From a virus (lineage: Duplodnaviria > Heunggongvirae > Uroviricota > Caudoviricetes): a DNA stretch of 64,000 bases. The stretch is taken from positions 52,285-116,284 of the IMG/VR virus record IMGVR_UViG_3300029610_000357; one strand, 5' to 3'. Position numbers and translations under genes: made by a program. The notes under the pieces were generated by a model. It was not told the DNA's origin. It saw only the letters and a program-made list of their open reading frames with translations, and ran no database searches. Positions 2,253 to 32,631 of the stretch are shown piece by piece (within the stretch, counting starts at the first letter, position 1; each line of letters starts with the position of its first letter).

Positions 2253-2262
2253 TTGGACATAG

Positions 2263-2335
<73 letters not shown>

Positions 2336-2519
2336 ACAAAAAGAGTACATTGTAACTACCAACAATGTACTCAAACTTAGAAAAGAGGTATAAATTATGA
2401 TTCCTACAAGAAATCTTAATAGCTTTGTAAATCTTTCTGAGGTATGAAACAACAGTAGAAAAGCGCAATAATCAAAACTTCACAAGAAAGGAGATAATAT
2501 GATTCCTCAGAAAGATTAA

Positions 2520-2591
2520 CAGGGATAACTGGATTTGAACCAGTGAATACAGCAGTCAAAGTGCTGTGCCTTACCGCTTGGCGATATCCCT
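2520..2591 (-). tRNA. tRNA-Gln(UUG)
   Basis: Acceptor AGGGATA/TATCCCT, anticodon arm CAGCA-CTTTGAC-TGCTG, T-arm ACTGG-TTCAAAT-CCAGT. Confidence 0.9.
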
Positions 2592-3204
2592 ATATGTATT
2601 TTAATTTTAAAGCAGGTCTTCACCTTACAGTCATTTGTGGAATAGTTTGTTCTGCAACATAGTAGATAAGTCTGAGCTTCGAGGAGCGACCTCTAACTTC
2701 TTACCTAAGTCTAAAAGACCAGTTCTATGACATGATCAATACATGCAATGTCAACCCACCATTCAGAATTAAGTTTTATTGTTATATACTCTATTAGCAT
2801 ATATATTCATTTTGAATTTGAACTTGCCCTTAACTGACTTGAGCGACATACCAGCGACTTTTCTTATACACTGTCTTTTGAACAGCTTCACATCAAACTA
2901 CATTATTTGGCTTTTCCACCTTTTACGTACCTGCCAGAGTACGCATTGAAGTGGATTATTCTCCACAGGAGCGTCTATTGTTGTAGCGAAAAGTTCTGTG
3001 CGTTAACCAGACCAAAATGCTGCACAATATCCATTTGCTTGAGAGTTTCTCTCTTGTCCATATCAGATCACTCCGACATAAAAAGAGACACAAAGAACGT
3101 ATCCGTACAATGTATCTCTCCAATTCGACATATGTGCCTAGAATATCTCTCGGACTCATGGCATTGAGTTTTATAACCGAGTTGCTTATGTTTTAAAATA
3201 CAAA
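2592..3204 (-). other. 613-nt ORF-free spacer inside the tRNA array (possible co-transcribed structured RNA)
   Basis: Flanked directly by tRNA-Gln and tRNA-Trp. Only short overlapping shadow ORFs without RBS, and no tRNA fold found by eye. Confidence 0.3.
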
Positions 3205-3276
3205 CACCCTAAGCTGGATTTGAACCAGCACGAACGGTTTTGGAGACCGTCATTCTACCAACTAAATTATTAGGGC
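3205..3276 (-). tRNA. tRNA-Trp(CCA)
   Basis: Acceptor GCCCTAA/TTAGGGT, anticodon arm ACGGT-CTCCAAA-ACCGT, T-arm GCTGG-TTCAAAT-CCAGC. Confidence 0.85.
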
Positions 3277-3283
3277 GATATTA

Positions 3284-3357
3284 CTGACATGACAGGACTC
3301 GAACCTGCAACACCAACGTCCGTAGCGTTGTGCTCTGTCCAGTTGAGCTACATGTCA
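3284..3357 (-). tRNA. tRNA-Arg(ACG)
   Basis: Acceptor TGACATG/CATGTCA, D-arm GCTC..GAGC, anticodon arm CAACG-CTACGGA-CGTTG, T-loop TTCGAGT. Confidence 0.9.
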
Positions 3358-3570
3358 ATAACGAATATGTATTTACCTCTCATACGTACACACTGGCGAG
3401 ACAATACATATTTCTAAAAAGCAACAGTGTGTAAGTATTGCTTTTCTAGGGCGAACTGAAGTGATGAACTCCATCAGAATATCAGAAGAGGTATACATTC
3501 CAATATCCACCAACCATCAGGGTGTTCGCATATTTTTTGGTTAATCTATCGTATAGTTACTAACCTAATC

Positions 3571-3656
3571 ATCCCTGTTGAGGGAATCGAACCCACTCGT
3601 GACCGAAGCCGCAAAATTTACAGTTTTGCCTGTCTCCTTAGCAGTATAAACAGGGA
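3571..3656 (-). tRNA. tRNA-Tyr(GUA), type II with long variable arm
   Basis: Acceptor TCCCTGT/ACAGGGA, anticodon arm GCAAAA-CTGTAAA-TTTTGC, variable arm GGCTTCGGTCAC, T-loop TTCGATT. Confidence 0.8.
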
Positions 3657-3695
3657 TATTAGCCCACAAGTCCGAAGAACATTGTAGGACAAACA

Positions 3696-3770
3696 TCACA
3701 CCAACGAGAGTCGAACTCGTATTGCATCCGTGAAAGGGATGTGTCCTAAAACCATTTAGACGATGGTGCG
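3696..3770 (-). tRNA. tRNA-Glu(UUC)
   Basis: Acceptor CGCACCA/TGGTGTG, Glu-type D-arm GTCT..AGGAC, anticodon arm CATCC-CTTTCAC-GGATG, T-arm ACGAG-TTCGACT-CTCGT. Confidence 0.85.
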
Positions 3771-3776
3771 ATTTAG

Positions 3777-3868
3777 CGTACGGACTGGGCTACGACCCCA
3801 GGATACACATGTTCGTATGTATACAGGATTAGCAATCCTGCGCATTAAACCAGCTCTGCCACCCGTAC
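3777..3868 (-). tRNA. tRNA-Ser(GCU), type II
   Basis: Acceptor GTACGGG/TCCGTAC, anticodon arm CAGGA-TTGCTAA-TCCTG, 22-nt variable arm, T-arm CTGGG-GTCGTAG-CCCAG (non-canonical T-loop). Confidence 0.8.
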
Positions 3869-4920: not shown

Positions 4921-5017
4921 CTTATATCCTTCCTTTCATATATCACTATTTTACCACCCCTTCAAAACACTAGGTTTTACCTAGGTTTCTGAGGGGTATT
5001 TAATGTGGTAATTCTGC
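4921..5017 (-). ncRNA. conserved structured element, copy 1 of 3
   Basis: Minus sense: TTACCAC-ATTAAATA-CCCCTCAGAAAC..hairpin..GTTTTGAAGGGG-TGGTAAAATAGTGATATATG-AAGGAAGGA. Homologous to 5107-5202 and 47683-47772. Confidence 0.45.
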
Positions 5018-5213: not shown

Positions 5214-6068
5214 TTATTTTTTGTCAGAATTATAGTATTTGGTATATCTATTTAACTGCATTTCACTCTTACAAGAAGTACAATACTGTCTAAGCCGTCC
5301 TTTACGATGCTTTTTCTTTTTTGAGATGTCTCTAAAAGGTTCTCCACAACAGGAGCATACAGAAATCTCAGGATATCCAATAAAGTGAAGGTATCTGTTC
5401 CCAAGATTCTTGAAGTCTGTAATCTCAAGAGCAACATCTCCTGAATCGACAAGAATATCTACAGAGAAGTTTAAGCTATTAACTTTCTTGCTCATTGTTA
5501 TACAATCGCTTCTGAACAGCCTGCCGATTATTTGGCATCTACGTTCTCTTGTACCTACTGTATTACCCAATGAGAATAAATATTTGTAGTCTGTATTCAC
5601 CCAATTATTGTTTTGAGGATTCAGAGCATTATAATACTTGGCCAAGCAAAGAGCAGTGAAGAGAATCTTTTGATCTCTAAGATTCTCTAACCCATTTATG
5701 GTTTCCATTTCAGACTCATAGATCGGCAGTGAATCAATTTCCACAAGAGGATACTTTTTAGCTTTGTGAATGATCTCATCAATGCATGAATACCATTTAG
5801 CTTCTCTGTAGCTCTCACAGGACTCTTTTAAGAACTCATTGATAGTTTTATATACCTGTGCAGGTTCTAAGCCTTTCTCGTGGATGTAATACTTTGCAAG
5901 CAGGGTAGCAGTATATGGGATACTGCTTTCCAACTCTTTTGTTTCTAAAATTTTTTCTACCAGTGTTTTTTCATTCAGTACGATATTAATAACAATCAGC
6001 CTCCTCAAACATAGATGATTCAATTTGTTTAATAGTTTCAATGACGAAAGAATCTCCGTCATATTCAA
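5214..6068 (-). CDS. hypothetical protein with C-terminal zinc ribbon (CSCCG..CTSC); start uncertain
   Basis: ORF track. The 5' 83 nt overlap the upstream gene, so the true start may be internal. Confidence 0.5.
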   Translation of the reverse strand: MNMTEILSSLKLLNKLNHLCLRRLIVINIVLNEKTLVEKILETKELESSIPYTATLLAKYYIHEKGLEPAQVYKTINEFLKESCESYREAKWYSCIDEIIHKAKKYPLVEIDSLPIYESEMETINGLENLRDQKILFTALCLAKYYNALNPQNNNWVNTDYKYLFSLGNTVGTRERRCQIIGRLFRSDCITMSKKVNSLNFSVDILVDSGDVALEITDFKNLGNRYLHFIGYPEISVCSCCGEPFRDISKKKKHRKGRLRQYCTSCKSEMQLNRYTKYYNSDKK

Positions 6069-7128
6069 AATCTCCTGATTCAGCTCTTACAGGATAAGAG
6101 ATCTGGTGATAGTTTCTCTCTAAGAGTCTTTGGACAAGGATGTCTCCAAACATGTCCCATACAAACTGCTTACTCTTGCCATTGGTATAGCAGAGGTCAA
6201 GAAGAATGTCACAAGCTTTCTCAGGATCAGGAACAGCAGTGGCAACAGCTTCTCTGAACAACATGACTCGGTTATTGATGATGTCTGTTACATTTAGTCC
6301 AAAGACACCCCGGCCATTGATTAGAGCATTCAGGGTTTTCATTTTCTTTGAATACTCGCTGTATAACTTCTTAAGAGCATAATAATCATTCTTGTTGTAC
6401 TCATGATCTCTTTTGAGAATGGAGTAATCAAAATCTGTTTGTGTATTCAACTTCTTTAAGTAGCCATCAAACTCATCCTCAAAGAGCTTACAGATTCGAT
6501 TCATTACACAAGGCCCTGTACCTACAGGTAAGAACTTATAGTAGTGATCTAAGAATTCTGCTTCATCCTCTGTGATAGGTTCTGTATCAGCTTTCTTGAG
6601 CAATTCATCAATCGTGCATCCAAACCAGATAATACATTTATCGTTTGAAGCTTTCACATAATTTGTGTAATCCTTTCTCAGGTGAGAGTAAATGTAGATC
6701 ATGAAGTATGGTTTCTTGTCAGCTACGATTCTCTGATTGAATTCTTTTCGCTTACGATCCTTTGATGAGTCTTCAGGATGGATGTTGTTGTCTTTTCTGT
6801 TATACCAGTAAGATGGGATAGGTTTACACACAATGCCCTTCAATTTGTCAATCGAATTTTGTTGGTATAGCTGACCGCAAATGATTCTGTAATCCAGTTC
6901 TTTAAACTCATCACTGTCAGGAGAGTAATGAGACTGTACTTCAAACTGAGAAGTGATGATGTTTGTTGTGAAGCCAATTTCGTCTCCAAAGGCATCCTTG
7001 TAAGCTTTTAAAATGTCTTTTCGTTTAGGGACAATCTTGTTAGCTTTGCGTTGAGCACAAATGATTGATGGAAGAGGACGATTGTTTTCAACAAGTATTC
7101 TATTGTTAGTTGTGAAGAAGAGGTCTCC
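5986..7128 (-). CDS. YonO-like single-subunit two-barrel RNA polymerase candidate, exon 2
   Basis: Frame stays open upstream of the track start. Own translation from 7128 gives GDLFFTTNNRILVENNRPLPSIICAQRKANKIVPKRKD...LKGIVCKPIPSYWY. Length is 1143 nt (381 codons), joining in frame to exon 1. Confidence 0.6.
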   Translation of the reverse strand, partial: GDLFFTTNNRILVENNRPLPSIICAQRKANKIVPKRKDILKAYKDAFGDEIGFTTNIITSQFEVQSHYSPDSDEFKELDYRIICGQLYQQNSIDKLKGIVCKPIPSYWYNRKDNNIHPEDSSKDRKRKEFNQRIVADKKPYFMIYIYSHLRKDYTNYVKASNDKCIIWFGCTIDELLKKADTEPITEDEAEFLDHYYKFLPVGTGPCVMNRICKLFEDEFDGYLKKLNTQTDFDYSILKRDHEYNKNDYYALKKLYSEYSKKMKTLNALINGRGVFGLNVTDIINNRVMLFREAVATAVPDPEKACDILLDLCYTNGKSKQFVWDMFGDILVQRLLERNYHQISYPVRAESGDFEYDGDSFVIETIKQIESSMFEEADCY

Positions 7129-7464
7129 CGATGTACCCTCGGTTTCCCGATATTTATGGAGAAAGGGGACTAGACTATATCATTACACAGCATAGGTCTT
7201 ACACTGTGATGCTCGGCACTTCCCTTGGGGAGTTTCACCCTTTTGGTACTCTACTTGCTACCGATACCGTATTCCTCGAATATCAGTGCTTTGGATAGTC
7301 GTTTGACTTTCAATTTCTGCTTAGCACAGGATTACCACCGGCATTACCCGCTGAGGCTCCCCTGTTAGCATATGCGTTAACTTCCATTTCCTGAAGCTAC
7401 TGTACGTCACATATACACCTTACATTTGTAAGTTCACCGAGTTTTACTTCGACCAAGTAAACTA
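7129..7464 (-). ncRNA. group I self-splicing intron, ORF-less (336 nt)
   Basis: 5' exon ends UUCGAU. The intron guide GUCGAA (11 nt in) pairs with it, giving a U.G wobble at the splice site. The intron ends ..GGUACAUCG (terminal G). It contains GAUAUAGUCUAGUCC and is homologous to the intron at 56040-56387. Confidence 0.7.
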
Positions 7465-9114
7465 ATCGAAGTCGCAACCGTTAAGTGATTCACATGTATT
7501 ATCCCAATCATTGATCACACAAATGGATGGGAGATACTGGAACCAGTATGAAAGCTGCTCATTGTTCTTCACTTTAAGATTGACGATGTTATAATGGCTT
7601 GTCATTGGAGCTCTGAAGCAAGCTACTTCATCAACCTGTCTATCGATCCAATGCTTGTGATACATTTCTCCTGCTTTAAGCAATCCTGTAACTTCAAGTC
7701 CAAACATGGATTGCATGAGAGCATATGGATCACCAGCAACGATTGAATAATTACCTTTCACTTTGATGCGTCCGATCTTAGCATCTTGGATTCGTTTCTT
7801 GATGAGAGAATGAATCTTAGATCGAATGAAAGGATCTTTGATCATCTCAGGTTCAGCTATGAGTGCCTGAATGTATGTAAAAGCATCTGACTGTAAGATG
7901 TTCTTCTCAGTCATATTCTTACCTCGCAGGAAGAGCAGAGTCTTTCTGTAATCCATCCCAAGAATGTCTTTGATCTCTTTTATGGTTGGCTCACAAAGCT
8001 CTCTTATTTGGTCGTCTGTAAGATAATAGCTCTGTAAGAACTGATAGTTAAGATTCCTTTCAGTATCACATTCTTGTTCGGCTGTTTTGGCAAGAGCAAA
8101 GTGATAATCATACTTCTCAATGTTCTCTAAGTAGTCTTCCATAGAGTCATATGCATCCCATAGCTTAAACATAGATGTTGTAAGTATCACCTGAGCGTCT
8201 CTAACGTCCCTAGGATGGCCCCAAGCATCAATAATGGTATAAGTCTTAGCTACGTCCTCTGCAAAGGCTCTAAAGTCCATACAGTGAAGCATACCTTTAC
8301 AGAATGGCCATCCTCTCATGTTGCCAGATGGAAGAGGAGTATCATAATCTCCATTCAGTTCACCATTCCATTGTCTTGCAAGTTCTGGAAGAACTAATCC
8401 TTCTCCATCAGACCCATTGTGTACAAACTCTTGATCATCAAGAAGAGTTACTTCTGGTTCATCTGAGTTTGTATCATCCACATAAAGAGCTTGTCCCTTA
8501 AAGATCGTCTCACAGTCTTGTACAACAATCACTCCTGATGGTGGAGTAACAACTGTAGAAGAAGAGCAGAAGAGTGCTTTGTACGCTCCGAGCTTGTTTG
8601 GTATGATCGGAACTTCTTTATTCCTCCCGGCATCTACTTTCTCACAGAGAGCATCGTATACATTGTCACTGACAAAGATTACAACACTGTTCTTTAAGCC
8701 TCCTGTGGTTCCTAAGAAGAGATTGTAGTGGAGATCATTTACAATGAATCCATGCTTGCTGCAGTAGTCATAATCTTTCTTTGTGTCGAAGACCACTGTG
8801 AGGTAGTCTGTTTGGAATCGACATTTGTACAGATCATTGTAGAGTAGTGAGATAAGTTCTTTGCTTCCTCTGTTGGCTGAAAGCTCTTTGATCTTCTTTC
8901 GGATTCTTTTTGCTCTTATGTCTGAATCATAGTCATGGATCAATGAGTCAATTGTTCTTAATGCTTCAGAACTTGAAAGAGTAATAATGTCGTCTCCATT
9001 CTCCCTCGCTTCATTGAGTGGTAGAGAAAGTTTCCACTTCGCCTTTCTTAATCGGCTGCTGTGTAGTTTGTAAATATATTTCTGACTCGTTTTTTGCTTA
9101 GAAATAATGATCAC
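7465..9114 (-). CDS. YonO-like single-subunit two-barrel RNA polymerase candidate, exon 1
   Basis: 550 codons ending ...CESLNGCDFD. Splicing to exon 2 restores NGCDFDGD, resembling the NADFDGD/DxDGD metal-binding motif of two-barrel RNAPs. Confidence 0.6.
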
Positions 9115-9340: not shown

Positions 9341-9374
9341 AAAAAAGACACGCTTTTATGCGGGTTTAAGATCC
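9341..9374 (-). promoter_or_regulatory. conserved 33-nt box, copy 1 (AAAAAAGACACGCTTTTATGCGGGTTTAAGATCC)
   Basis: Near-identical to 11324-11356. Minus sense contains CGCATAAAAG, resembling the ATCATAAA boxes of the right arm. Confidence 0.35.
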
Positions 9375-10502
9375 AATTCGGGGGATAAAACTGGGACCCA
9401 TGATCCAGTGCTTTTTGCCTCCTTGAAAGAGCATATCAACGACTTTTCGAACATCTGTTCCATAGCGAGCATATCTTTTTGACCAAAATTCTGTAGTAGA
9501 TAATTCATATACAGAAGTTAATGAATCGATTACGTCTTGAGGAGTTCCTTCTGGGAATTCTTTTAGACAACTGTAATAAGCTGTAAGATTTTTAATCAAC
9601 TCTTCCTTCTTTGACTGAGCATTTTTTAAAACTTTTGGTTTAAAAATTTGTTGAATTCTTTTCTGATAAGTATAGAATTCGTACTCTCTTAAGTAGCTGT
9701 GCTCATCTGGATAAAGATACTCAGGCTCGATCACATACTTAAAATAAAGTTTGGAAAACTCCTTATGAGATTTAAGTGCCTTTAGGAATTTTGGATAAAC
9801 TTCTGGATATAATCTCACAGTTGTAATGTCAAGATCGTGTTTTGGTATGCGGAGACTATCACATAAAGTATCTTCATAAATCTTACGTTCTTTTTCTGTG
9901 AGATCTCTGAGTGGTTCGAATGGACTGCTGCCACATACGATTCGTTTTTTCTGTCTGATGATTCCTCTATTTTCCATACTTACAAGCAGATTATAAAATC
10001 GTCCATGTGCTAAATTCTGCATACTCTCATAAGCTGTGTCGAAGTATGTACCAGGATATTTATCAAACTTATCAAGGTCGTAATCTTTCTTCTTTGCTGG
10101 AATGAGTCCAAGCACTTCACACCATTTGTTCTTATCCCAATTTTCATTGATGTGGTTGTCTAAGATATGGATGATCATCATTTCCATCATATAGTTGATT
10201 CCCATGAAAGGACTTCTAAGTTCCCAAGAGAATGGGTTCTCAATATATTCACCTTTGATCTTTGTGATTTTAATCTGACCATCTTTCTGCTTCTTTGTAC
10301 ATATGAAGTGATCAAGATTTGCTTTGTGGACTGCATAGTGACTCTTTCTGCCTTCTTTATCGATTCCAACTAATTGAAGAATGTCTGAGTACTTGTTGTA
10401 CTTGTGGCCTTCTTTCAGATTGGATAAATCGAAGAGATGTTGTTTTTCTTTCATGAACCAGAATTGTTCAGCTAAGTAATCGTTTCTTTCTTGTATCGTC
10501 AT
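9366..10502 (-). CDS. hypothetical protein (378 aa)
   Basis: ORF track. AGGAGG RBS (plus-strand CCTCCT at 10510-10515). No motif recognised. Confidence 0.6.
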   Translation of the reverse strand: MTIQERNDYLAEQFWFMKEKQHLFDLSNLKEGHKYNKYSDILQLVGIDKEGRKSHYAVHKANLDHFICTKKQKDGQIKITKIKGEYIENPFSWELRSPFMGINYMMEMMIIHILDNHINENWDKNKWCEVLGLIPAKKKDYDLDKFDKYPGTYFDTAYESMQNLAHGRFYNLLVSMENRGIIRQKKRIVCGSSPFEPLRDLTEKERKIYEDTLCDSLRIPKHDLDITTVRLYPEVYPKFLKALKSHKEFSKLYFKYVIEPEYLYPDEHSYLREYEFYTYQKRIQQIFKPKVLKNAQSKKEELIKNLTAYYSCLKEFPEGTPQDVIDSLTSVYELSTTEFWSKRYARYGTDVRKVVDMLFQGGKKHWIMGPSFIPRIGS

Positions 10503-11060
10503 TTTTGACCTCCTTTTTGCTGTTTCTTTTTGTTAATTCAATGAAAAAATGCATTTGTCTGAGTAATGACACTTTTCTTTCGATAAATTCACATTACCAC
10601 AGATGTAGAGTAAAATCAATAGTTTTCTGAAGAAAAAATAAAATTGTGCGAGCAATGACACTTTTTATTTCATTTAAGTACGTTTAAGGAGGCTTAGACT
10701 GGGATTTTTATGTCAAGTGTTTTTTGGAAATTTCTTAAAATAGTGCTTTCTTTGGCTGTTTTACTTGGTTTGTTCTGGATTTTTCTTTGACTTGTTGTAC
10801 TTAGATGGGTAGAAATATGGCTGTTTTATGCGATTGTACAAAAATAAAATAAATTAATTCTTTATATGCTAAAGTATTGACTTTTGAAAAATCAAGTGTT
10901 TTTTGAAAGAAATTTAAAAAAATTTTTACCGTGTGGAATTCTCAGAGAAGGGGTTTGCATTTATATAAGAAGAGCTTGGTTTTTGAAAAAATTTCAGAGA
11001 GATGGGTTTATAGCAGAACAGGTGTTCTATATTTTAGAGTGTGTTAAGAGGTGCGTTTCT

Positions 11061-11167
11061 GGGGAAAGTTTTTATGAGGGGGAGGGGTGTATGTGGGGGT
11101 GTTTGGAAAGAAATGTTGGGGATGTTTTTAGGGGGTTTTGAGGGGGTTAAATGGCGTAGATGTGGGG
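11061..11167 (+). repeat. cluster of nine G4-G5 tracts (G-quadruplex-prone)
   Basis: GGGG/GGGGG runs at 11061, 11078, 11084, 11095, 11118, 11131, 11142, 11164 and others, within ~107 nt of an otherwise AT-rich genome. Confidence 0.6.
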
Positions 11168-11323
11168 TGGAGAAACGTCTGGCTGAACTTGTGGTATAGA
11201 ATTACCAGCTATACAAATATCAGCAAAACTGCGATTTAAAAATAGTTTTAAGTAGCCCCCTAAACACTTGTAAAAGTCCGTAAATAACTATTTACTTGCG
11301 TTTTTGATCAGAAATAGATAGTC

Positions 11324-11356
11324 AAAAAAGCACGTATTTATGCGGGTTTGAGACCG
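11324..11356 (-). promoter_or_regulatory. conserved 33-nt box, copy 2 (AAAAAAGCACGTATTTATGCGGGTTTGAGACCG)
   Basis: Direct repeat of 9341-9374. Confidence 0.35.
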
Positions 11357-12327
11357 TTTGAAAAGATTTTTAAAAATAATTTTTTTAGGGTATTGCAATA
11401 TTTTCGTGGGCATGGTCTTATACAGTTGTTCAAACGAACAGGGAACTTGATAAAACAACAACCGGCAAGGGTTGTAAAACGTGCTTGCCAATATTTCAAC
11501 ATAAAAAGGGGGTAGCCCTACCCCTGTATAAAAATTGGGCGTGTACCTTGATAACTGAATAAGTCTGAATCCGTTCGGCAAGTCTCCGAACAGGTTCAAA
11601 AAATCAGTTTCTTTGGAAACTGAACGACAGGCTAAAACTCTGCCCTGTTACTCATTCGTGACAGGCAGACAAGTAAACCTTTGACTTATTGCCTGTACCC
11701 AATGTCACACGAACGTGGTACAGGATTTATAAGAAGTCGTTGCAAGTCCAAAGAAGTGTAGCAGATTTTTTGAATCGGTTCGCAAAAATACAGGTAGTGA
11801 CAGCCTGTAGACAAACTACCAAACAGACGAAAGACTTCCTAAACGATATATTTTATATTGCTTAGTATAGTCGATATGACAGGGTGTCAAACATTGACGG
11901 TTGACCCAAAACACGTTCACATACTATAAGTCCCTGTGGTGGTGGGGTCCTGTCTTTCAAGTGTTTGAGAAGCGTTGTTGTTGACACTATAACAGAGTAC
12001 CGCCCACGGTAGAAAGTTCTAACAGGCACGACAACGGCTCTCATTCGAGCTGGGTATATTGTGCATTGAATACTACTACTTATCTAGTTCAACGGTAGGA
12101 GACTAGACTCTGTGAAATAATAGGCTATGACAGGTGCAACCCCTGTATAGTATCGAGTGAGTGCATGAACACTTGCGAGCGGTCAAAAGTCCCTTTAGGG
12201 ATAATATTAGAACTCTGTGAGTTCATTAGAATACACCTAACAGGTGTGGTCTAATGAGTTCATAGGAACTCAATGCAACAAATACATATTTTTTAGGGTA
12301 CGACTGTATCCGGAATAGGAGTTTATC

Positions 12328-13305
12328 ATGAGTAGAAAATCAACAAAAACAACAACAGTAGCAAACATTACACTACCAGTCCGTAAAATGGACTTCACAG
12401 AAGCAACTAAAGAATTCCGTACTCTTTGTCGCAATTTCTACACAGATTTTGAGAAAGTCGCAGAGAACAGGGAAGCTCTACGAGCAGAGAAAACAGAGTG
12501 TGAAGAACACTTTGACACTCGAGTAAACAATGCTTTTGACGTATCCGAACCTGTGGATACAGACAAAGAATTACCAGCGGAGTATGCAGACCTTAGGAAT
12601 ATTCTAGAAAAATATTCTGTAATACAGGCTACAGGTCTGCTTTCTAAGGAAGATAATGACTATCTTTCTGCACTTTGCGATAAGTGGAAAAAAGCTGACG
12701 CAAAGATTAGAAACTTAAAAAATCCAGTGCCTGAGAAGTCTCTAGTTGTAGATGCAATCTATGACCTATACAAGGGATGCTCTACAGATATGAGTGAAAA
12801 CCGTGACGGCTACGCTCGTAAAGTCAAGGGGTTCTTTGAATCTAAAGGCATGACACTAACTTCTTATGGTTGGGATGTGTTCAATGCTTCCATTGGGTTC
12901 AATGTGAATAATGACAAAAACTTCTTAGAGACAGGTAAGTTCTTCAACCCTATCAAAAAGAGCAAGTTTGTAGAAAGATTCTATATGTTCTTCTGTGAGG
13001 GGTTTGTAAGTGCAGATTGCTTCCCTAAGACTAAGAAAGCACGTCATGTAGATGCAGAAGAACAGGCACCAGTGGCACCTCAGAAAGTTGAAACACCTGA
13101 GGAAGTACATGAAAAGTGTGCAGACGCTCGTGCTGAAATCTCAGCTCAGAAACTGGGTACAACTGAGTCCAAACCAATGGACAAAATGACAGTGGCAGAG
13201 TTACGTACTTTCATTAAGAAACATGATACAACTGCCAAAGTATCTAAGTTGAAAAAAGCTGACTTAGTAGCTATGGCTACAAAGTTCACAAATGTAGCAG
13301 CTTAA
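12328..13305 (+). CDS. hypothetical protein with C-terminal SAP/HeH (Rho-N-like) motif
   Basis: First gene of the rightward arm. GGAG RBS. C-terminus MTVAELRTFIKKHDTTAKVSKLKKADLVAMATKF. Confidence 0.6.
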   Translation: MSRKSTKTTTVANITLPVRKMDFTEATKEFRTLCRNFYTDFEKVAENREALRAEKTECEEHFDTRVNNAFDVSEPVDTDKELPAEYADLRNILEKYSVIQATGLLSKEDNDYLSALCDKWKKADAKIRNLKNPVPEKSLVVDAIYDLYKGCSTDMSENRDGYARKVKGFFESKGMTLTSYGWDVFNASIGFNVNNDKNFLETGKFFNPIKKSKFVERFYMFFCEGFVSADCFPKTKKARHVDAEEQAPVAPQKVETPEEVHEKCADARAEISAQKLGTTESKPMDKMTVAELRTFIKKHDTTAKVSKLKKADLVAMATKFTNVAA

Positions 13306-24054: not shown

Positions 24055-25347
24055 GTGAACGAGATCAATAAAAGGAAATTAGAACTGTTCATGGATGATC
24101 AGCTATGGAGACAAAATATCACACATCAGCAAAGCAAAGGTGTACATAGAGATGTATTAAGAATTGTATGTGATCCAGAATACAAAGCACGGCTTTTAGG
24201 AATGATCTGGGATGGTAATTACAAAATTGCACCTCCGTATGTAGTAGAAATTCCTAAAGACAATGGAAAAGTAAGAGAAGTGTATGTTAATCAGCCAATT
24301 GACAGATTTGTTATGACACAAATCAATTATGTTTATATGCAATTATATGGTCATATGATTCATCCAAGATGTGTGTCTTATCAGAAAGGAATTGGAGTTA
24401 AAAATATCGTAGATGATATTTGTATGGAGCTTAAGAAACATCAAGGAGCTGTTGGGTATAAGGTAGACATTAGTAAGTATTTTGACAGTGTAAGCCGTGA
24501 GGTACTTAATGAAATGATTGATAAAATTGATACAGGAAGTCCTATTGATCAGATTGTAAGAGATTATTATATGGATGATTGTATCATTGATCAGAAAAGA
24601 AATGTTATTGAGAAATACAAAAGTATGACTCAAGGTTGTGCAGTGTCTACATTCTTTGCCAATTGTGTTTTAAGAGATGTAGACGAAGAGTTAAGCAAGA
24701 TGGATATTATTTATTACAGATATTCAGATGATATCTTGATGGTTGGTAAGGATGCAGATAAGGCTTTGAAGATGTTAGGAGAGATGTTAGAAACAAAAGG
24801 ACTTACATTAAATCCCAAAAAGGTAGAAACAGTCAGTACAGATCAATGGTTTACATTCTTAGGAGTGCGAATTAATGGACAGAAGAGAAGTTTTTCTGAA
24901 AAGAGCTTAAAGGAATTTCAGAAACACATTAGAGAATATGTAAATAAGAAAGCAGGAATTGGTAGCGTAAAAGTTGCAATCAGACAAATTAATAAATATC
25001 TGTATTTGAATTTCTTAAGGAATCCGAATGAGTTTGGTTGGGCTGAGTATTTCTTTAGTATTGTGAATGTCGAAGATGATATTAAGACATTAGATATGTG
25101 GATTAAAGATACACTCAGAGGTTTGTATACTGGTAAGAGAAAGGTTGGTGGTCTTGGTGTAAATAAAGTAACTGATGAATGTGGAGTATTAAGAGGGAAA
25201 GGAAAAAACGTAAGTGCAAATCTTGGTAAAACAAGAAGCGATAAAGACATTTTAGAAGAAGCAGGATATATCAGCATGAATGAAATGTATCATCAGTTTA
25301 GATACAGTAAAGAATTGTACAGGGCTTCATTGACGGCTTTATCTTAA
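24055..25347 (+). CDS. reverse transcriptase (stand-alone, class unassigned)
   Basis: RT motifs IPKDNGKVREVY, YKVDISKYFDSV, QGCAVSTFFANCVL, YYRYSDDILMVG (YxDD), LTLNPKKVE, FTFLGVRI, plus a ~140-aa C-terminal extension. GTG start 15 nt after the last KNNYY gene. Confidence 0.9.
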   Translation: MNEINKRKLELFMDDQLWRQNITHQQSKGVHRDVLRIVCDPEYKARLLGMIWDGNYKIAPPYVVEIPKDNGKVREVYVNQPIDRFVMTQINYVYMQLYGHMIHPRCVSYQKGIGVKNIVDDICMELKKHQGAVGYKVDISKYFDSVSREVLNEMIDKIDTGSPIDQIVRDYYMDDCIIDQKRNVIEKYKSMTQGCAVSTFFANCVLRDVDEELSKMDIIYYRYSDDILMVGKDADKALKMLGEMLETKGLTLNPKKVETVSTDQWFTFLGVRINGQKRSFSEKSLKEFQKHIREYVNKKAGIGSVKVAIRQINKYLYLNFLRNPNEFGWAEYFFSIVNVEDDIKTLDMWIKDTLRGLYTGKRKVGGLGVNKVTDECGVLRGKGKNVSANLGKTRSDKDILEEAGYISMNEMYHQFRYSKELYRASLTALS

Positions 25348-32481: not shown

Positions 32482-32631
32482 GGGGACATAGCTTAATAGG
32501 TAAAGCAAAACTATATTTTTCCATAAAGAACTTAAAACTAAAATTTTCATATTAAATATAAACATTTTGTACCTCCCTATTGTAATAAAATAACACTTAT
32601 ATTTATGTGGGTTCGAGTCCCACTGTCCCCA
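32482..32631 (+). tRNA. tRNA-like gene interrupted by a ~75-nt AT-rich insertion; anticodon unresolved
   Basis: GGGGACA-TA-GCTT-AATAGGTA-AAGC ... GTGGG-TTCGAGT-CCCAC-TGTCCCC-A. Acceptor, D- and T-arms are perfect, but no 5-7-5 anticodon arm can be drawn. Confidence 0.45.

What the first reader, a model, noticed from the sequence alone, without database searches (positions are those of the whole stretch)
11357..12327. About 1 kb of ORF-free, GC-enriched, hairpin-dense sequence at the strand-switch hub: candidate large structured RNA or origin
Between the divergent arms there is no credible ORF, but stems are densely packed. Examples are GGCAAG/CTTGCC, CAGTTTC-tttg-GAAACTG, CTGCCCTGT/ACAGGCAG, CCTGTACC/GGTACAGG, CCGTTCGG/CCGAACAGG and CACCT-aac-AGGTG. 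The last is flanked by direct repeats GAGTTCAT[TA][AG]GAA. By eye the GC content is clearly above the coding average. Large ornate RNAs such as ROOL and GOLLD are known to reside in Firmicutes phages near tRNAs, so this is one place to look. A replication origin is the alternative.
Basis: partly seen in the sequence, partly recalled or inferred. Interest (0 to 1): 0.6.

Follow-up and report, generated by a model that had tools for sequence, protein, structure and literature searches.

The report
New structured phage leader RNA
The ORF-free kilobase is a real, previously undescribed, about 900-nt highly folded RNA that precedes the first gene of a gut phage's early operon; it matches no known RNA family and its function is still unknown.

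Summary
Window 11357-12327 has no credible ORF and folds far better than shuffles (z -7.45 on the + strand). It lies at the strand switch of a roughly 130-kb SPbeta/c-st-like gut phage with a split YonO RNA polymerase. GC enrichment is only modest (0.405 vs 0.351, the same as the neighbouring genes).

It is not ROOL, GOLLD, HEARO, OLE or raiA: Rfam gives nothing here, although a true ROOL lies at 2594-3205.

Divergent copies were found upstream of homologues of the downstream 325-aa protein, at 83%, 56% and more remote identity. They show strong covariation: 34 of 154 pairs have compensatory changes, against 6.4 +/- 2.2 in shuffles, and 97% of cells are paired. An about 100-nt core (11877-11977) is better conserved than the adjacent gene. 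G·U pairs and consensus energy (-135 vs -97 kcal/mol) point to the + strand.

A promoter-like site conserved in position (TTGCAA-17-TCTTAT, 11393-11421) puts the 5' end near 11428. A 24-bp G·U-rich hairpin and a small hairpin abutting the Shine-Dalgarno sequence end the element.

Best reading: a new lineage-restricted structured 5' leader, or leader-derived ncRNA, exchanged as one cassette with its gene. No origin features were found. Function is inferred, not shown.

The parts
11323..11349 (+). Conserved hub motif CAAAAAAGCACGTATTTATGCGGGTTT, about 45 nt upstream of the putative -35. Function unknown: possibly a regulator site, or a weak terminator for the - strand.
   Evidence: It is kept at a similar distance (about 40-45 nt) upstream of the TTG of the -35-like hexamer in every lineage, including the remote L090 (GTACGAATTTATGCGGTTT). 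A second exact copy of ACGNNTTTATGCGGGTTT lies at 9350-9367; 0.02 copies are expected by chance.
11393..11421 (+). Putative sigma-A-type promoter of the leader: -35 TTGCAA (11393-11398), 17-nt spacer, -10 TCTTAT (11416-11421). The inferred start is about 11428. The A/T-rich run containing TTTTTTAGGGTA (11381-11392) lies just upstream.
   Evidence: The position is conserved across lineages: L066 has TTGACA-17-TCTTAT, L090 has TTGCAA-17-TAGTAT, and L004/L083 have TTGTGT-16-TATAGT. Cassette breakpoints in relatives fall just downstream, at about 11396-11458. This is inferred; there are no transcript data, and the hexamers fall below the consensus scanner's threshold.
11430..11875 (+). 5' domain of the structured RNA: a chain of hairpins at 11465-11489, 11509-11524, 11573-11594, 11604-11623, 11640-11668, 11692-11724, 11789-11808 and 11839-11865. 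Several have conserved loops (GGCAAGU, CUCAUUCG, CAAY..GAACGUGG).
   Evidence: z = -5.31 against 100 shuffles. Compensatory changes occur within the window clade and in L065 and L083, for example CTGCCC../..GGCAG to CTACCC../..GGTAG, GGGGTAG/CTACCCC to GGTGGTAG/CTACCACC, and CCGTTCGG/CCGAACAGG to CAGTGGTC/GACCACTG with the loop kept. ACAGG/CCTGT occurs 17 times against about 2.3 expected across the whole finding, 11357-12327.
11876..11981 (+). Near-invariant core: a long irregular hairpin (helices 3-7 of alignment A5), GACAGGGUGUCA..UUGACGGUUGACCC..AACACGU..CAUACUAUA.GUCCCUGUGGGGGUGGGGUCCUGUC.
   Evidence: It is 80-88% identical to L065 and 80% to L066 over 11888-11967, where the adjacent gene is only 61% identical in DNA and 56% in protein to L066. 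The closing helix UCAAACA/UGUUUGA becomes UCACUGU/ACAGUGA in L066, four compensatory pairs. Covariance model R1 scores 115-131 bits in the three lineages. A weak match to the apical part sits at the same relative position in L083-type loci.
11982..12212 (+). 3' multi-helix domain. It includes hairpin 12035-12052 (CGGCUC-UCAUUC-GAGCUG), hairpin 12125-12150 with the conserved loop UGCAAYC, and the invariant CGAGCGGUCAA at 12176-12186.
   Evidence: In helix 12, all 6 pairs show changes on both sides. Helix 14 has 4 such pairs out of 10, and helices 8, 9, 11, 13, 15 and 16 each have 1-2.
12215..12265 (+). 24-bp G·U-rich hairpin whose arms are direct repeats at the DNA level (GAGTTCAT). Proposed to be a double-strand-specific (RNase III-type) processing or stability element.
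   Evidence: (I1) identifies the arms. Six pairs carry compensatory changes in L066/L065 and 98% of cells are paired (helix 18). The four to five G·U pairs would be A·C mismatches on the - strand. The processing role is an inference.
12289..12321 (+). 3' end architecture: U6 run (12289-12294), a 6-bp hairpin GGGUAC-GACU-GUAUCC (12296-12311), then the Shine-Dalgarno sequence GGAAUAGGAG (12312-12321) and AUG at 12328.
   Evidence: The hairpin is kept through one- and two-sided changes: GGAUAC/GUAUCC in L065, GGGUAC/GUACUC in L066, GGGUGC/GCACUC in L083. Alternative cassettes place a different small hairpin at the same spot (L009 GATTGC-AACC-GCAATC; L090 CCTAT-GTAGT-ATAGG).
12328..13305 (+). 325-aa first gene of the rightward early arm. 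It is all-helical with a C-terminal HeH (Rho-N/SAP-like) motif and always travels with the leader.

Best explanation
Window ~11428-12327 encodes, on the + strand, a ~900-nt highly structured RNA. It is the 5' leader of the rightward early/replication operon of a temperate-type SPbeta/c-st-like gut phage, and it belongs to no described RNA family.

Proposed working, with shown and inferred steps marked:
1. Host RNA polymerase starts at a positionally conserved sigma-A-like promoter (TTGCAA-17-TCTTAT) (inferred).
2. The nascent RNA folds into at least 20 helices around a near-invariant ~100-nt core (shown by covariation).
3. The fold governs how much transcription or translation reaches the 325-aa gene and the more than 50 kb of early genes behind it. 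It would do so as a cis-regulatory platform (attenuation, antitermination or protein binding), possibly recognised by the co-inherited HeH-domain protein (inferred).
4. The 24-bp hairpin near the 3' end is cut by a double-strand-specific RNase. This releases the folded RNA and leaves an mRNA whose 5' end is protected by the small hairpin abutting the Shine-Dalgarno sequence (inferred, by analogy with 5' stabilisers and RNase III processing of Bacillus phage early RNAs; that analogy is from my own knowledge).
For: Structure is real:
- z = -7.45 for the whole region and z = -5.31 for the 5' half.
- On nine sequences from three lineages, 154 consensus pairs are 97.2% paired. 34 pairs have changes on both sides, against 6.4 +/- 2.2 in 500 shuffles (0/500) and 2-5 in slid controls.
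- A four-lineage consensus keeps 121 pairs, 47 of them with double changes.

Purifying selection:
- The core is 80% identical to L066, where the neighbouring gene is 61% identical in DNA and 56% in protein.

Strand:
- Consensus energy is -134.8 kcal/mol on + against -97.1 on -, with 154 against 126 pairs.
- The arms of the 24-bp hairpin are DNA direct repeats that pair only through G·U.

Leader anatomy:
- The promoter-like site is conserved in position in five lineages.
- Cassette breakpoints in relatives lie just after it.
- No ORF with a Shine-Dalgarno sequence lies inside.
- No canonical + strand terminator lies between the last big hairpin and the gene.
- A small hairpin directly before the Shine-Dalgarno sequence is present in every lineage.

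Linkage to the gene:
- Every homologue of the 325-aa protein with enough flanking DNA has 0.96-1.9 kb of sequence without a credible gene upstream.
- Leader type and gene type are swapped together.

The arm it heads carries helicase, primase, DNA polymerase, integrase and anti-repressor genes.
Against: - There are no expression data. The start site, the processing and even transcription itself are inferred.
- The promoter hexamers are weak (TCTTAT lacks the A at position 2) and were not called by the consensus scan.
- Sampling is shallow: four lineages, one of them supplying most sequences. Part of the covariation rests on MAFFT alignments of a 55-65% identical sequence, and the structure was predicted from the same alignment.
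- Nothing ties the RNA to a specific mechanism. No riboswitch, T-box, put, EAR or C4 similarity was found, and the partner protein has no informative fold.
- Three hairpins (11458-11475, 11509-11524, 11604-11623) look like terminators on the - strand, so some stems may serve the opposite strand.
- A free-standing RNA ending before 12289 cannot be excluded.
Confidence: 0.58

Rival explanations
1. It is a free-standing, trans-acting large ornate ncRNA, comparable in role to ROOL or GOLLD, that merely sits upstream of the 325-aa gene. The gene would have its own promoter in the conserved U-run/AGGGTA region.
For: Its size (about 0.85 kb), its many helices with conserved loops and its near-invariant core resemble ornate RNAs. 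The same phage already carries a ROOL. The motif TTTTTTAGGGTA occurs exactly twice in 64 kb, once before the element and once before the gene, as two copies of a promoter element might.
Against: The second TTTTTTAGGGTA copy is part of an RNA hairpin kept by compensatory changes (GGGUAC/GUAUCC, GGAUAC/GUAUCC, GGGUGC/GCACUC), not a promoter-like invariant. No intrinsic terminator follows the last large hairpin. The family is found only next to one protein family and only in one narrow phage group. This is unlike the widely dispersed ornate RNAs.
Confidence: 0.17
2. It is a leader-derived immunity or anti-repressor control RNA of the P4 CI or P1/P7 C4 kind. A small stable RNA would be cut out of the leader and pair with repeated complementary sequences in the same leader, causing premature termination or translation block of the early (anti-repressor-containing) operon.
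For: The complementary 5-mers ACAGG and CCTGT occur 17 times against about 2.3 expected. An anti-repressor (Bro-N/Ant) gene lies downstream in the same arm. The alternative leader cassettes of sister phages carry a tRNA-like cloverleaf with a 7-bp acceptor stem and a GGTTCGACTCC T-arm, with covarying stems, just before the gene; this is the type of RNase P substrate used to mature C4 and CI (the RNase P link is from my own knowledge). The hub is where a lysis-lysogeny switch would be expected.
Against: There is no Rfam C4 or related hit at E <= 10. The window-type leader has no tRNA-like element. Most ACAGG/CCTGT copies are already used as the two sides of local stems. The element is ten times larger than those RNAs.
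Confidence: 0.12
3. It is a DNA-level element: a replication origin, a pac site, or hairpin-type promoters for the phage's YonO polymerase. The stems would form as DNA cruciforms or single-strand hairpins.
For: GC skew changes sign at the strand switch. In SPbeta the pac site was mapped to the equivalent yonP-yonR divergent region (PMC8270828). A G-run-rich, R-loop-prone tract lies 200-400 bp to the left. The adjacent protein carries a HeH nucleic-acid-binding motif and is swapped together with the element, as initiator-origin modules are.
Against: There are no DnaA boxes, iterons or tandem repeats in 11357-12327, and GC of 0.40-0.47 is not an unwinding element. The helices depend on many conserved G·U pairs: 252 G·U cells against 11 A·C, and a consensus energy of -135 against -97 kcal/mol for the complement. 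The key 24-bp hairpin cannot form in the complementary strand. The skew switch is equally explained by gene orientation. The part of the gap conserved in all relatives is 10027-11400, not this segment.
Confidence: 0.07
4. It has no function: fortuitous hairpins in a recombination-prone spacer.
For: Within the window clade the spacer is not more conserved than the neighbouring gene: 2-5% divergence against about 1%.
Against: z = -7.45. 34 compensatory pairs against 6.4 expected. The core is more conserved than the adjacent coding sequence at 56% protein identity.
Confidence: 0.03

Closest known systems
ROOL and GOLLD (large ornate RNAs of Firmicutes and their phages)
   Same: It is several hundred nucleotides long, has many helices with conserved loops, is phage-borne, has no coding capacity and has unknown function. 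A genuine ROOL is present in the same phage at 2594-3205 among tRNAs.
   Different: There is no sequence or structure match to either model. It is not next to tRNAs. It sits between a promoter and a Shine-Dalgarno sequence as a leader. It is restricted to one narrow phage group and tied to one protein family.
Leader-derived phage immunity RNAs (P1/P7 C4, P4 CI)
   Same: It lies in the leader of an early or anti-repressor operon at a regulatory hub. It has repeated complementary motifs. Sister cassettes carry a tRNA-like processing-type element.
   Different: It is about ten times larger. There is no Rfam match. The window-type copy has no tRNA-like element. Processing has not been shown.
Cis-acting processive antitermination RNAs (HK022 put, Bacillus EAR)
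   Same: It is a structured RNA at the head of a very long co-directional operon (more than 50 kb on the + strand here). It is conserved as structure rather than as sequence.
   Different: Those elements are 70-120 nt with defined two-hairpin or pseudoknot folds. There is no similarity by covariance-model scan, and no terminators have been shown to be overridden.
SPbeta's unannotated ncRNA at the head of its YonO-transcribed late operon (PMC5467207)
   Same: The phage lineage is related (YonO polymerase), and there is a kilobase-scale unannotated gap holding an RNA at the start of a long operon.
   Different: That RNA heads the late arm, downstream of yonN. In this window the equivalent place holds the tRNAs and ROOL. 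The element studied here heads the opposite (early) arm. There is no sequence or model match to the SPbeta region.

Membership tests
ROOL (RF03087) | Match to the Rfam covariance model at or above its gathering score | tested here: not met
   cmscan of the whole window finds ROOL only at 2594-3205 (306 bits). Nothing appears in 10500-12450 even at E <= 10.
GOLLD, HEARO, OLE, raiA and every other Rfam 15 family | Match to the family covariance model | tested here: not met
   No hit at gathering score. The permissive scan of 10500-12450 gives only chance-level hits (best E 0.43, 19.5 bits against a threshold of 80), and only one of them (bxd_1, 15.4 bits against a threshold of 75, E 2.2) lies within 11400-12327. 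Alternative cassettes L009 and L015 are also negative.
Conserved structured RNA (generic criteria) | Folding energy beyond dinucleotide shuffles | tested here: met
   z = -7.45 for 971 nt and z = -5.31 for the 5' half. Local windows 11400-11900 and 12100-12400 give z of -2.4 to -4.7.
Conserved structured RNA (generic criteria) | Compensatory base-pair changes in homologues, above controls | tested here: met
   34 of 154 pairs against 6.4 +/- 2.2 in shuffles (0/500). Slid controls give 2-5. 97.2% of cells are paired.
Conserved structured RNA (generic criteria) | Strand asymmetry (G·U-dependent helices) | tested here: met
   The + consensus is -134.8 kcal/mol with 154 pairs; the - consensus is -97.1 with 126 pairs. 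There are 252 G·U cells against 11 A·C on the + strand structure (this count is biased by prediction on the + strand).
Conserved structured RNA (generic criteria) | A transcript of the predicted strand and extent exists | not testable with these tools
   No RNA-seq is available. Only a promoter-like site conserved in position supports transcription.
Replication origin | Initiator boxes or iterons plus an AT-rich unwinding element | tested here: not met
   No DnaA box with one mismatch or fewer lies in 9799-12551. No tandem or iterated repeats lie within 11384-12335. GC is 0.405, above the window mean.
Replication origin | GC-skew polarity switch or marker-frequency peak | tested here: inconclusive
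   Cumulative skew has its minimum near 9-10 kb, but this coincides with the switch of gene orientation. Marker frequency is not testable here.
P1/P7 C4 and P4 CI type leader-derived RNA | tRNA-like RNase P substrate in the leader and complementarity to repeated leader targets | tested here: inconclusive
   No tRNA-like element is in the window copy and no C4 model hit was found. Sister cassettes do have a covarying tRNA-like cloverleaf. ACAGG/CCTGT is enriched, but mostly within local stems.
Riboswitch or attenuator leader | Known aptamer, or a terminator/antiterminator alternative directly upstream of the gene | tested here: inconclusive
   No aptamer family matches. Two weak + strand terminator-like sites lie at 11932-11947 and 12035-12052. 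A possible start-codon-occluding helix (12269-12276 with 12326-12333) is only partly supported: 1 compensatory pair and 3 pairs with unpaired cells (helix 19).

The most novel reading that the evidence does not exclude
The element and the HeH-domain protein it precedes form a new co-evolving RNA-protein module. In this reading, a roughly 0.9-kb ornate RNA with a near-invariant core works together with its cognate protein as a ribonucleoprotein. The module would set the early programme of a group of large gut phages (lysis-lysogeny or superinfection immunity, or a counter-defence function). Phages would exchange it as interchangeable 'leader plus gene' cassettes, and the alternative cassettes would use quite different RNAs (a twin-GGUUAG three-way junction plus a tRNA-like cloverleaf).
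Probability: 0.22. Interest if true: 0.78.

Novelty: new variant of a known kind. Interest (0 to 1): 0.62.

Why it matters
Very few bacterial or phage RNAs longer than 500 nt have well-supported structures, and each new one has opened unexpected biology. This one is attached to a defined promoter and gene, so it can be tested genetically by deleting, swapping or compensating. It also comes in natural cassette variants within otherwise near-identical phages, which amounts to a ready-made swap experiment. It sits at the control hub of an abundant, poorly understood group of human-gut phages that use a YonO-type single-chain RNA polymerase. If it controls the early programme, it would be a new type of RNA-based phage switch. 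If it does not, it is at least a new RNA family for Rfam and a caution that 'empty' kilobase gaps in phage genomes encode RNA.

Tried and rejected
- Rfam at gathering and permissive thresholds on the window gap and on two alternative cassettes gave nothing relevant.
- blastn of the gap against INPHARED phages and PLSDB plasmids gave no match.
- Protein-anchored scans of IMG/VR, JGI metagenomes and GTDB genomes with the 325-aa and 378-aa proteins returned only near-identical relatives or nothing. These relatives were too similar for a purifying-selection test.
- nhmmer of the gap against distant YonO-phage loci gave no homology.
- An exact-pattern scan with the core motif CCCTNTGGNGGTGGGGTCCTG returned the same clade plus one chance hit inside a high-GC coding gene (L070). 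It gave only chance hits in high-GC or unrelated genomes.
- Core covariance model R1 found nothing in SPbeta, c-st, PMBT24 or 22 distant YonO-phage loci, and only a weak apical match in L083-type loci.
- Small-ORF search with Shine-Dalgarno sequences found none.
- DnaA boxes and tandem repeats: none.
- A possible internal promoter in the core (TTGACC-18-TATAAG) was considered and rejected. The -10 loses its match in L065 and L066 (TATACG), and the block is enclosed by a covarying helix.
- My first transcription of a consensus structure for the count of structure pairs was unbalanced. One sliding-window script timed out. Both were redone.
Full report
**Observation.** Every quoted stem is present at its stated position, and the region lies at a strand switch.
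- To the left are a 378-aa gene (9366-10502) and a 550-aa gene (7462-9114), both on the - strand. To the right, from 12328, every sizeable ORF is on the + strand.
- The ORF-free gap is larger than reported: 10503-12327, 1825 bp.
- Within 11357-12327 there is no ORF of 10 codons or more preceded by a Shine-Dalgarno sequence. The longest mechanical ORF (103 aa, TTG start, - strand) is interrupted by a cassette replacement in close relatives.
- The 971 nt fold to -295 kcal/mol against -244 +/- 7 for dinucleotide shuffles (z -7.45). The complement gives z -5.43. The 5' half alone gives z -5.31 with 100 shuffles. Sliding 200-nt windows show local structure at 11400-11900 and 12100-12400, with the middle relying on long-range pairs.
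- GC is 0.405 against 0.351 for the window, in the top 4.4% of windows of that length. It is no higher than the flanking genes at 0.398-0.399, so 'GC-enriched' is only partly right.

**Context.**
- The 550-aa protein is the N-terminal part of a split YonO-type single-chain RNA polymerase. It is 40.7% identical to Clostridium phage c-st CST179, 39.5% to Enterocloster phages and 29% to SPbeta YonO. PHROGs suggests 5986-6843 is the C-terminal part.
- The - strand arm continues to seven tRNAs, a full-length ROOL RNA (2594-3205, 306 bits) and a yonJ-like exonuclease.
- The + strand arm carries an anti-repressor, a reverse transcriptase, an integrase, a DnaB-like helicase, a primase, a split DNA polymerase and an exonuclease V-like helicase. 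This is the early/replication arm.
- The finding therefore sits at the divergent control hub between the polymerase/late arm and the early arm of a roughly 130-kb phage from human-gut metagenomes.

**Not a known family.** Rfam 15 gives no hit in the gap at gathering thresholds, and only chance-level hits at E <= 10. The gap has no blastn match in 50,697 phage records or 72,556 plasmids.

**Close relatives and mosaicism.** About twenty IMG/VR and ENA contigs carry the hub.
- The left part (about 10027-11400) is 85-97% identical in all of them, even where the 378-aa protein is only 54% identical.
- The flagged segment behaves as a cassette.
  - Eight IMG/VR contigs, plus four metagenome contigs found later, keep it at 95-98% identity.
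  - Four of these replace 11396-11542 by another hairpin module.
  - Five others (L009, L013, L015, L018, L037) replace everything from about 11401-11458 to 13.5-14.3 kb. The replacement is a different leader of about 490 nt and a different first gene of 291-333 aa.
- The breakpoints lie just downstream of a promoter-like site. What is exchanged is 'leader plus first gene'.

**Divergent homologues and covariation.** The 325-aa protein has few relatives.
- Contigs encoding P0002 (83% identity; L065) and P0004 (56%; L066) carry 959 and 1023 nt upstream with no called gene.
- These upstream sequences align with the window leader.
- On nine sequences from three lineages, RNAalifold predicts 154 pairs for window 11848-12339. 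97.2% of cells are paired.
- 34 pairs have changes on both sides, against 6.4 +/- 2.2 in 500 column shuffles (none reached the observed value) and 2-5 when partners are slid by 1-3 columns.
- Examples:
  - the helix closing the core, UCAAACA/UGUUUGA, becomes UCACUGU/ACAGUGA in L066;
  - all six pairs of hairpin 12035-12052 change;
  - six pairs change in the 24-bp hairpin 12215-12265;
  - four pairs change in hairpin 12125-12150, whose loop UGCAAYC is kept.
- A block of about 100 nt (11876-11981) is almost invariant. It is 80% identical to L066, where the adjacent gene is 61% identical in DNA and 56% in protein.
- A fourth lineage (P0005, 328 aa; L083-L088) has the same layout. Its leader is much more diverged but keeps loops (GGCAAGU, CAAY..GAACGUGG, AAACUACC), covarying stems and the hairpin before the Shine-Dalgarno sequence. 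A four-lineage consensus keeps 121 pairs, 47 with double changes.
- A fifth, remote lineage (P0008, 277 aa; L090-L092) shares only the architecture: a 1.6-kb gene-free gap, the hub motif, a promoter-like site and a small hairpin before the Shine-Dalgarno sequence.

**Strand.** The consensus fold of the + strand alignment is -134.8 kcal/mol with 154 pairs. The complement gives -97.1 with 126 pairs. The large 3' hairpin is decisive. Its arms are direct repeats in DNA (GAGTTCAT...) that pair through four to five G·U wobbles, so the complementary strand cannot form it. L066 nevertheless preserves it through compensatory changes.

**Boundaries.**
- A sigma-A-like site has -35 TTGCAA (11393-11398), a 17-nt spacer and -10 TCTTAT (11416-11421). 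It recurs at the same position as TTGACA-17-TCTTAT (L066), TTGCAA-17-TAGTAT (L090) and TTGTGT-16-TATAGT (L004, L083). The inferred start is near 11428.
- About 45 nt upstream of the -35 lies a motif, AAAAAGCACGTATTTATGCGGGTTT, conserved even in L090. It is present a second time at 9350-9367.
- At the 3' end, all lineages have a U-run, a 5-6-bp hairpin and then the Shine-Dalgarno sequence. No canonical + strand terminator separates the RNA from the gene.
- The simplest reading is one transcript: promoter, then a roughly 900-nt folded leader, then the 325-aa gene and the early operon.

**Mechanism.**
- Shown: a conserved, strand-specific secondary structure with a highly constrained core, physically and evolutionarily linked to one protein family.
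- Inferred: transcription from the conserved promoter, a cis-regulatory role over the early operon, cleavage at the 24-bp hairpin by a double-strand-specific RNase, and protection of the resulting mRNA by the hairpin next to the Shine-Dalgarno sequence.
- The alternative cassettes support the processing idea by analogy. At the place of the long hairpin they carry a tRNA-like cloverleaf, which is the classic RNase P/Z substrate. It has a 7-bp acceptor stem CTCAACY/RGTTGAG and a T-arm GGTTCGACTCC, both covarying, followed by a small hairpin and the Shine-Dalgarno sequence.

**Rivals.**
- A free-standing ornate RNA is possible. It is disfavoured because there is no terminator, and because the second TTTTTTAGGGTA copy is a covarying RNA hairpin rather than a promoter.
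- A leader-derived immunity RNA of the P4 CI or P1 C4 kind fits the location, the 17 copies of ACAGG/CCTGT (about 2.3 expected) and the tRNA-like element of sister cassettes. It has no direct support in the window copy.
- An origin or pac site is not supported for this segment. It remains open for the conserved left half of the gap with its G-run tract. In SPbeta the pac site maps to the equivalent yonP-yonR region.

**Verdict.** The 'structured RNA' reading is supported, but as a new leader-type family and not as ROOL or GOLLD. The origin reading is not supported.
- Confidence that this is a selected + strand RNA structure: about 0.85.
- Confidence that it is a cis leader with a regulatory or processing role: about 0.55-0.6.
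- Confidence in any specific mechanism: 0.3 or less.

Noticed in passing
window 2594-3205 (-), with tRNAs at 2262-3868 (-): There is a full-length ROOL RNA (RF03087, 306 bits, E 1.9e-69) embedded in a cluster of seven tRNA genes on the late (YonO) arm. This is the positional equivalent of SPbeta's 1.7-kb unannotated yonN-yonK gap, where an 'unannotated ncRNA' heads the YonO-transcribed operon.
   Followed up: partly
window ~10930-11170 (+): A G-rich, C-poor tract has at least 7 runs of GGGG(G) within 11070-11170, giving it G-quadruplex or R-loop potential. On the - strand it is C-rich and essentially unstructured (-9 to -14 kcal/mol per 200 nt), which is rut-like. It is conserved at 95-97% in all relatives regardless of which cassette follows.
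   Followed up: partly
window 9350-9367 and 11332-11349 (+): The 18-mer ACGNNTTTATGCGGGTTT occurs exactly twice in 64 kb (0.02 expected). One copy lies at the stop codon of the 378-aa gene (- strand), in the spacer that precedes the YonO gene; the other lies in the hub. It is conserved in remote lineages such as L090. On the - strand it reads as a weak hairpin followed by T6.
   Followed up: partly
L009 4543-4733 (-), L013 4537-4729 (-), L015 4607-4792 (-), L037 3146-3340 (-): The alternative leader cassettes carry a tRNA-like cloverleaf just before the first gene. It has a 7-bp acceptor stem and a GGTTCGACTCC T-arm, with covarying stems. ARAGORN and Rfam do not call it.
   Followed up: partly
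L015 ~4926-4976 (-) and the equivalent in L009 and L013: In the alternative cassettes there is a three-way junction with two adjacent hairpins whose loops are GGTTAGYCC. The stems covary (GACGG/CCGTC, GGCGG/CCGCC, CATGG/CCATG, TACGG/CCGTA), as does the outer stem. There is no Rfam match.
   Followed up: partly
window 7462-9114 (-) and 5986-6843 (-): The YonO-type RNA polymerase is split into N- and C-terminal genes with intervening ORFs, as in Clostridium phage c-st (CST179/CST177).
   Followed up: partly
window 24055-25347 (+): A 430-aa reverse transcriptase (phrog_1423, E 9e-30) lies inside the early arm. Its type (retron, DGR, group II or defence-type) was not determined.
   Followed up: no
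window 32482-32631 (+): Rfam gives a tRNA hit spanning 150 nt (42.5 bits) that ARAGORN does not call. It may be an intron-containing or otherwise interrupted tRNA.
   Followed up: no
window 10711-10791 (+): A small hydrophobic ORF (MSSVFWKFLKIVLSLAVLLGLFWIFL, 26 aa) follows AAGGAGG at 10686-10692, though the 18-nt spacing is long. It could be a small membrane peptide or toxin in the conserved left half of the gap (read by eye).
   Followed up: no
window 11458-11475, 11509-11524, 11604-11623 (- strand sense): Three of the leader's perfect hairpins are followed by T-runs on the - strand, so they look like intrinsic terminators for leftward transcription. They may insulate the YonO arm from antisense transcription.
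   Followed up: no
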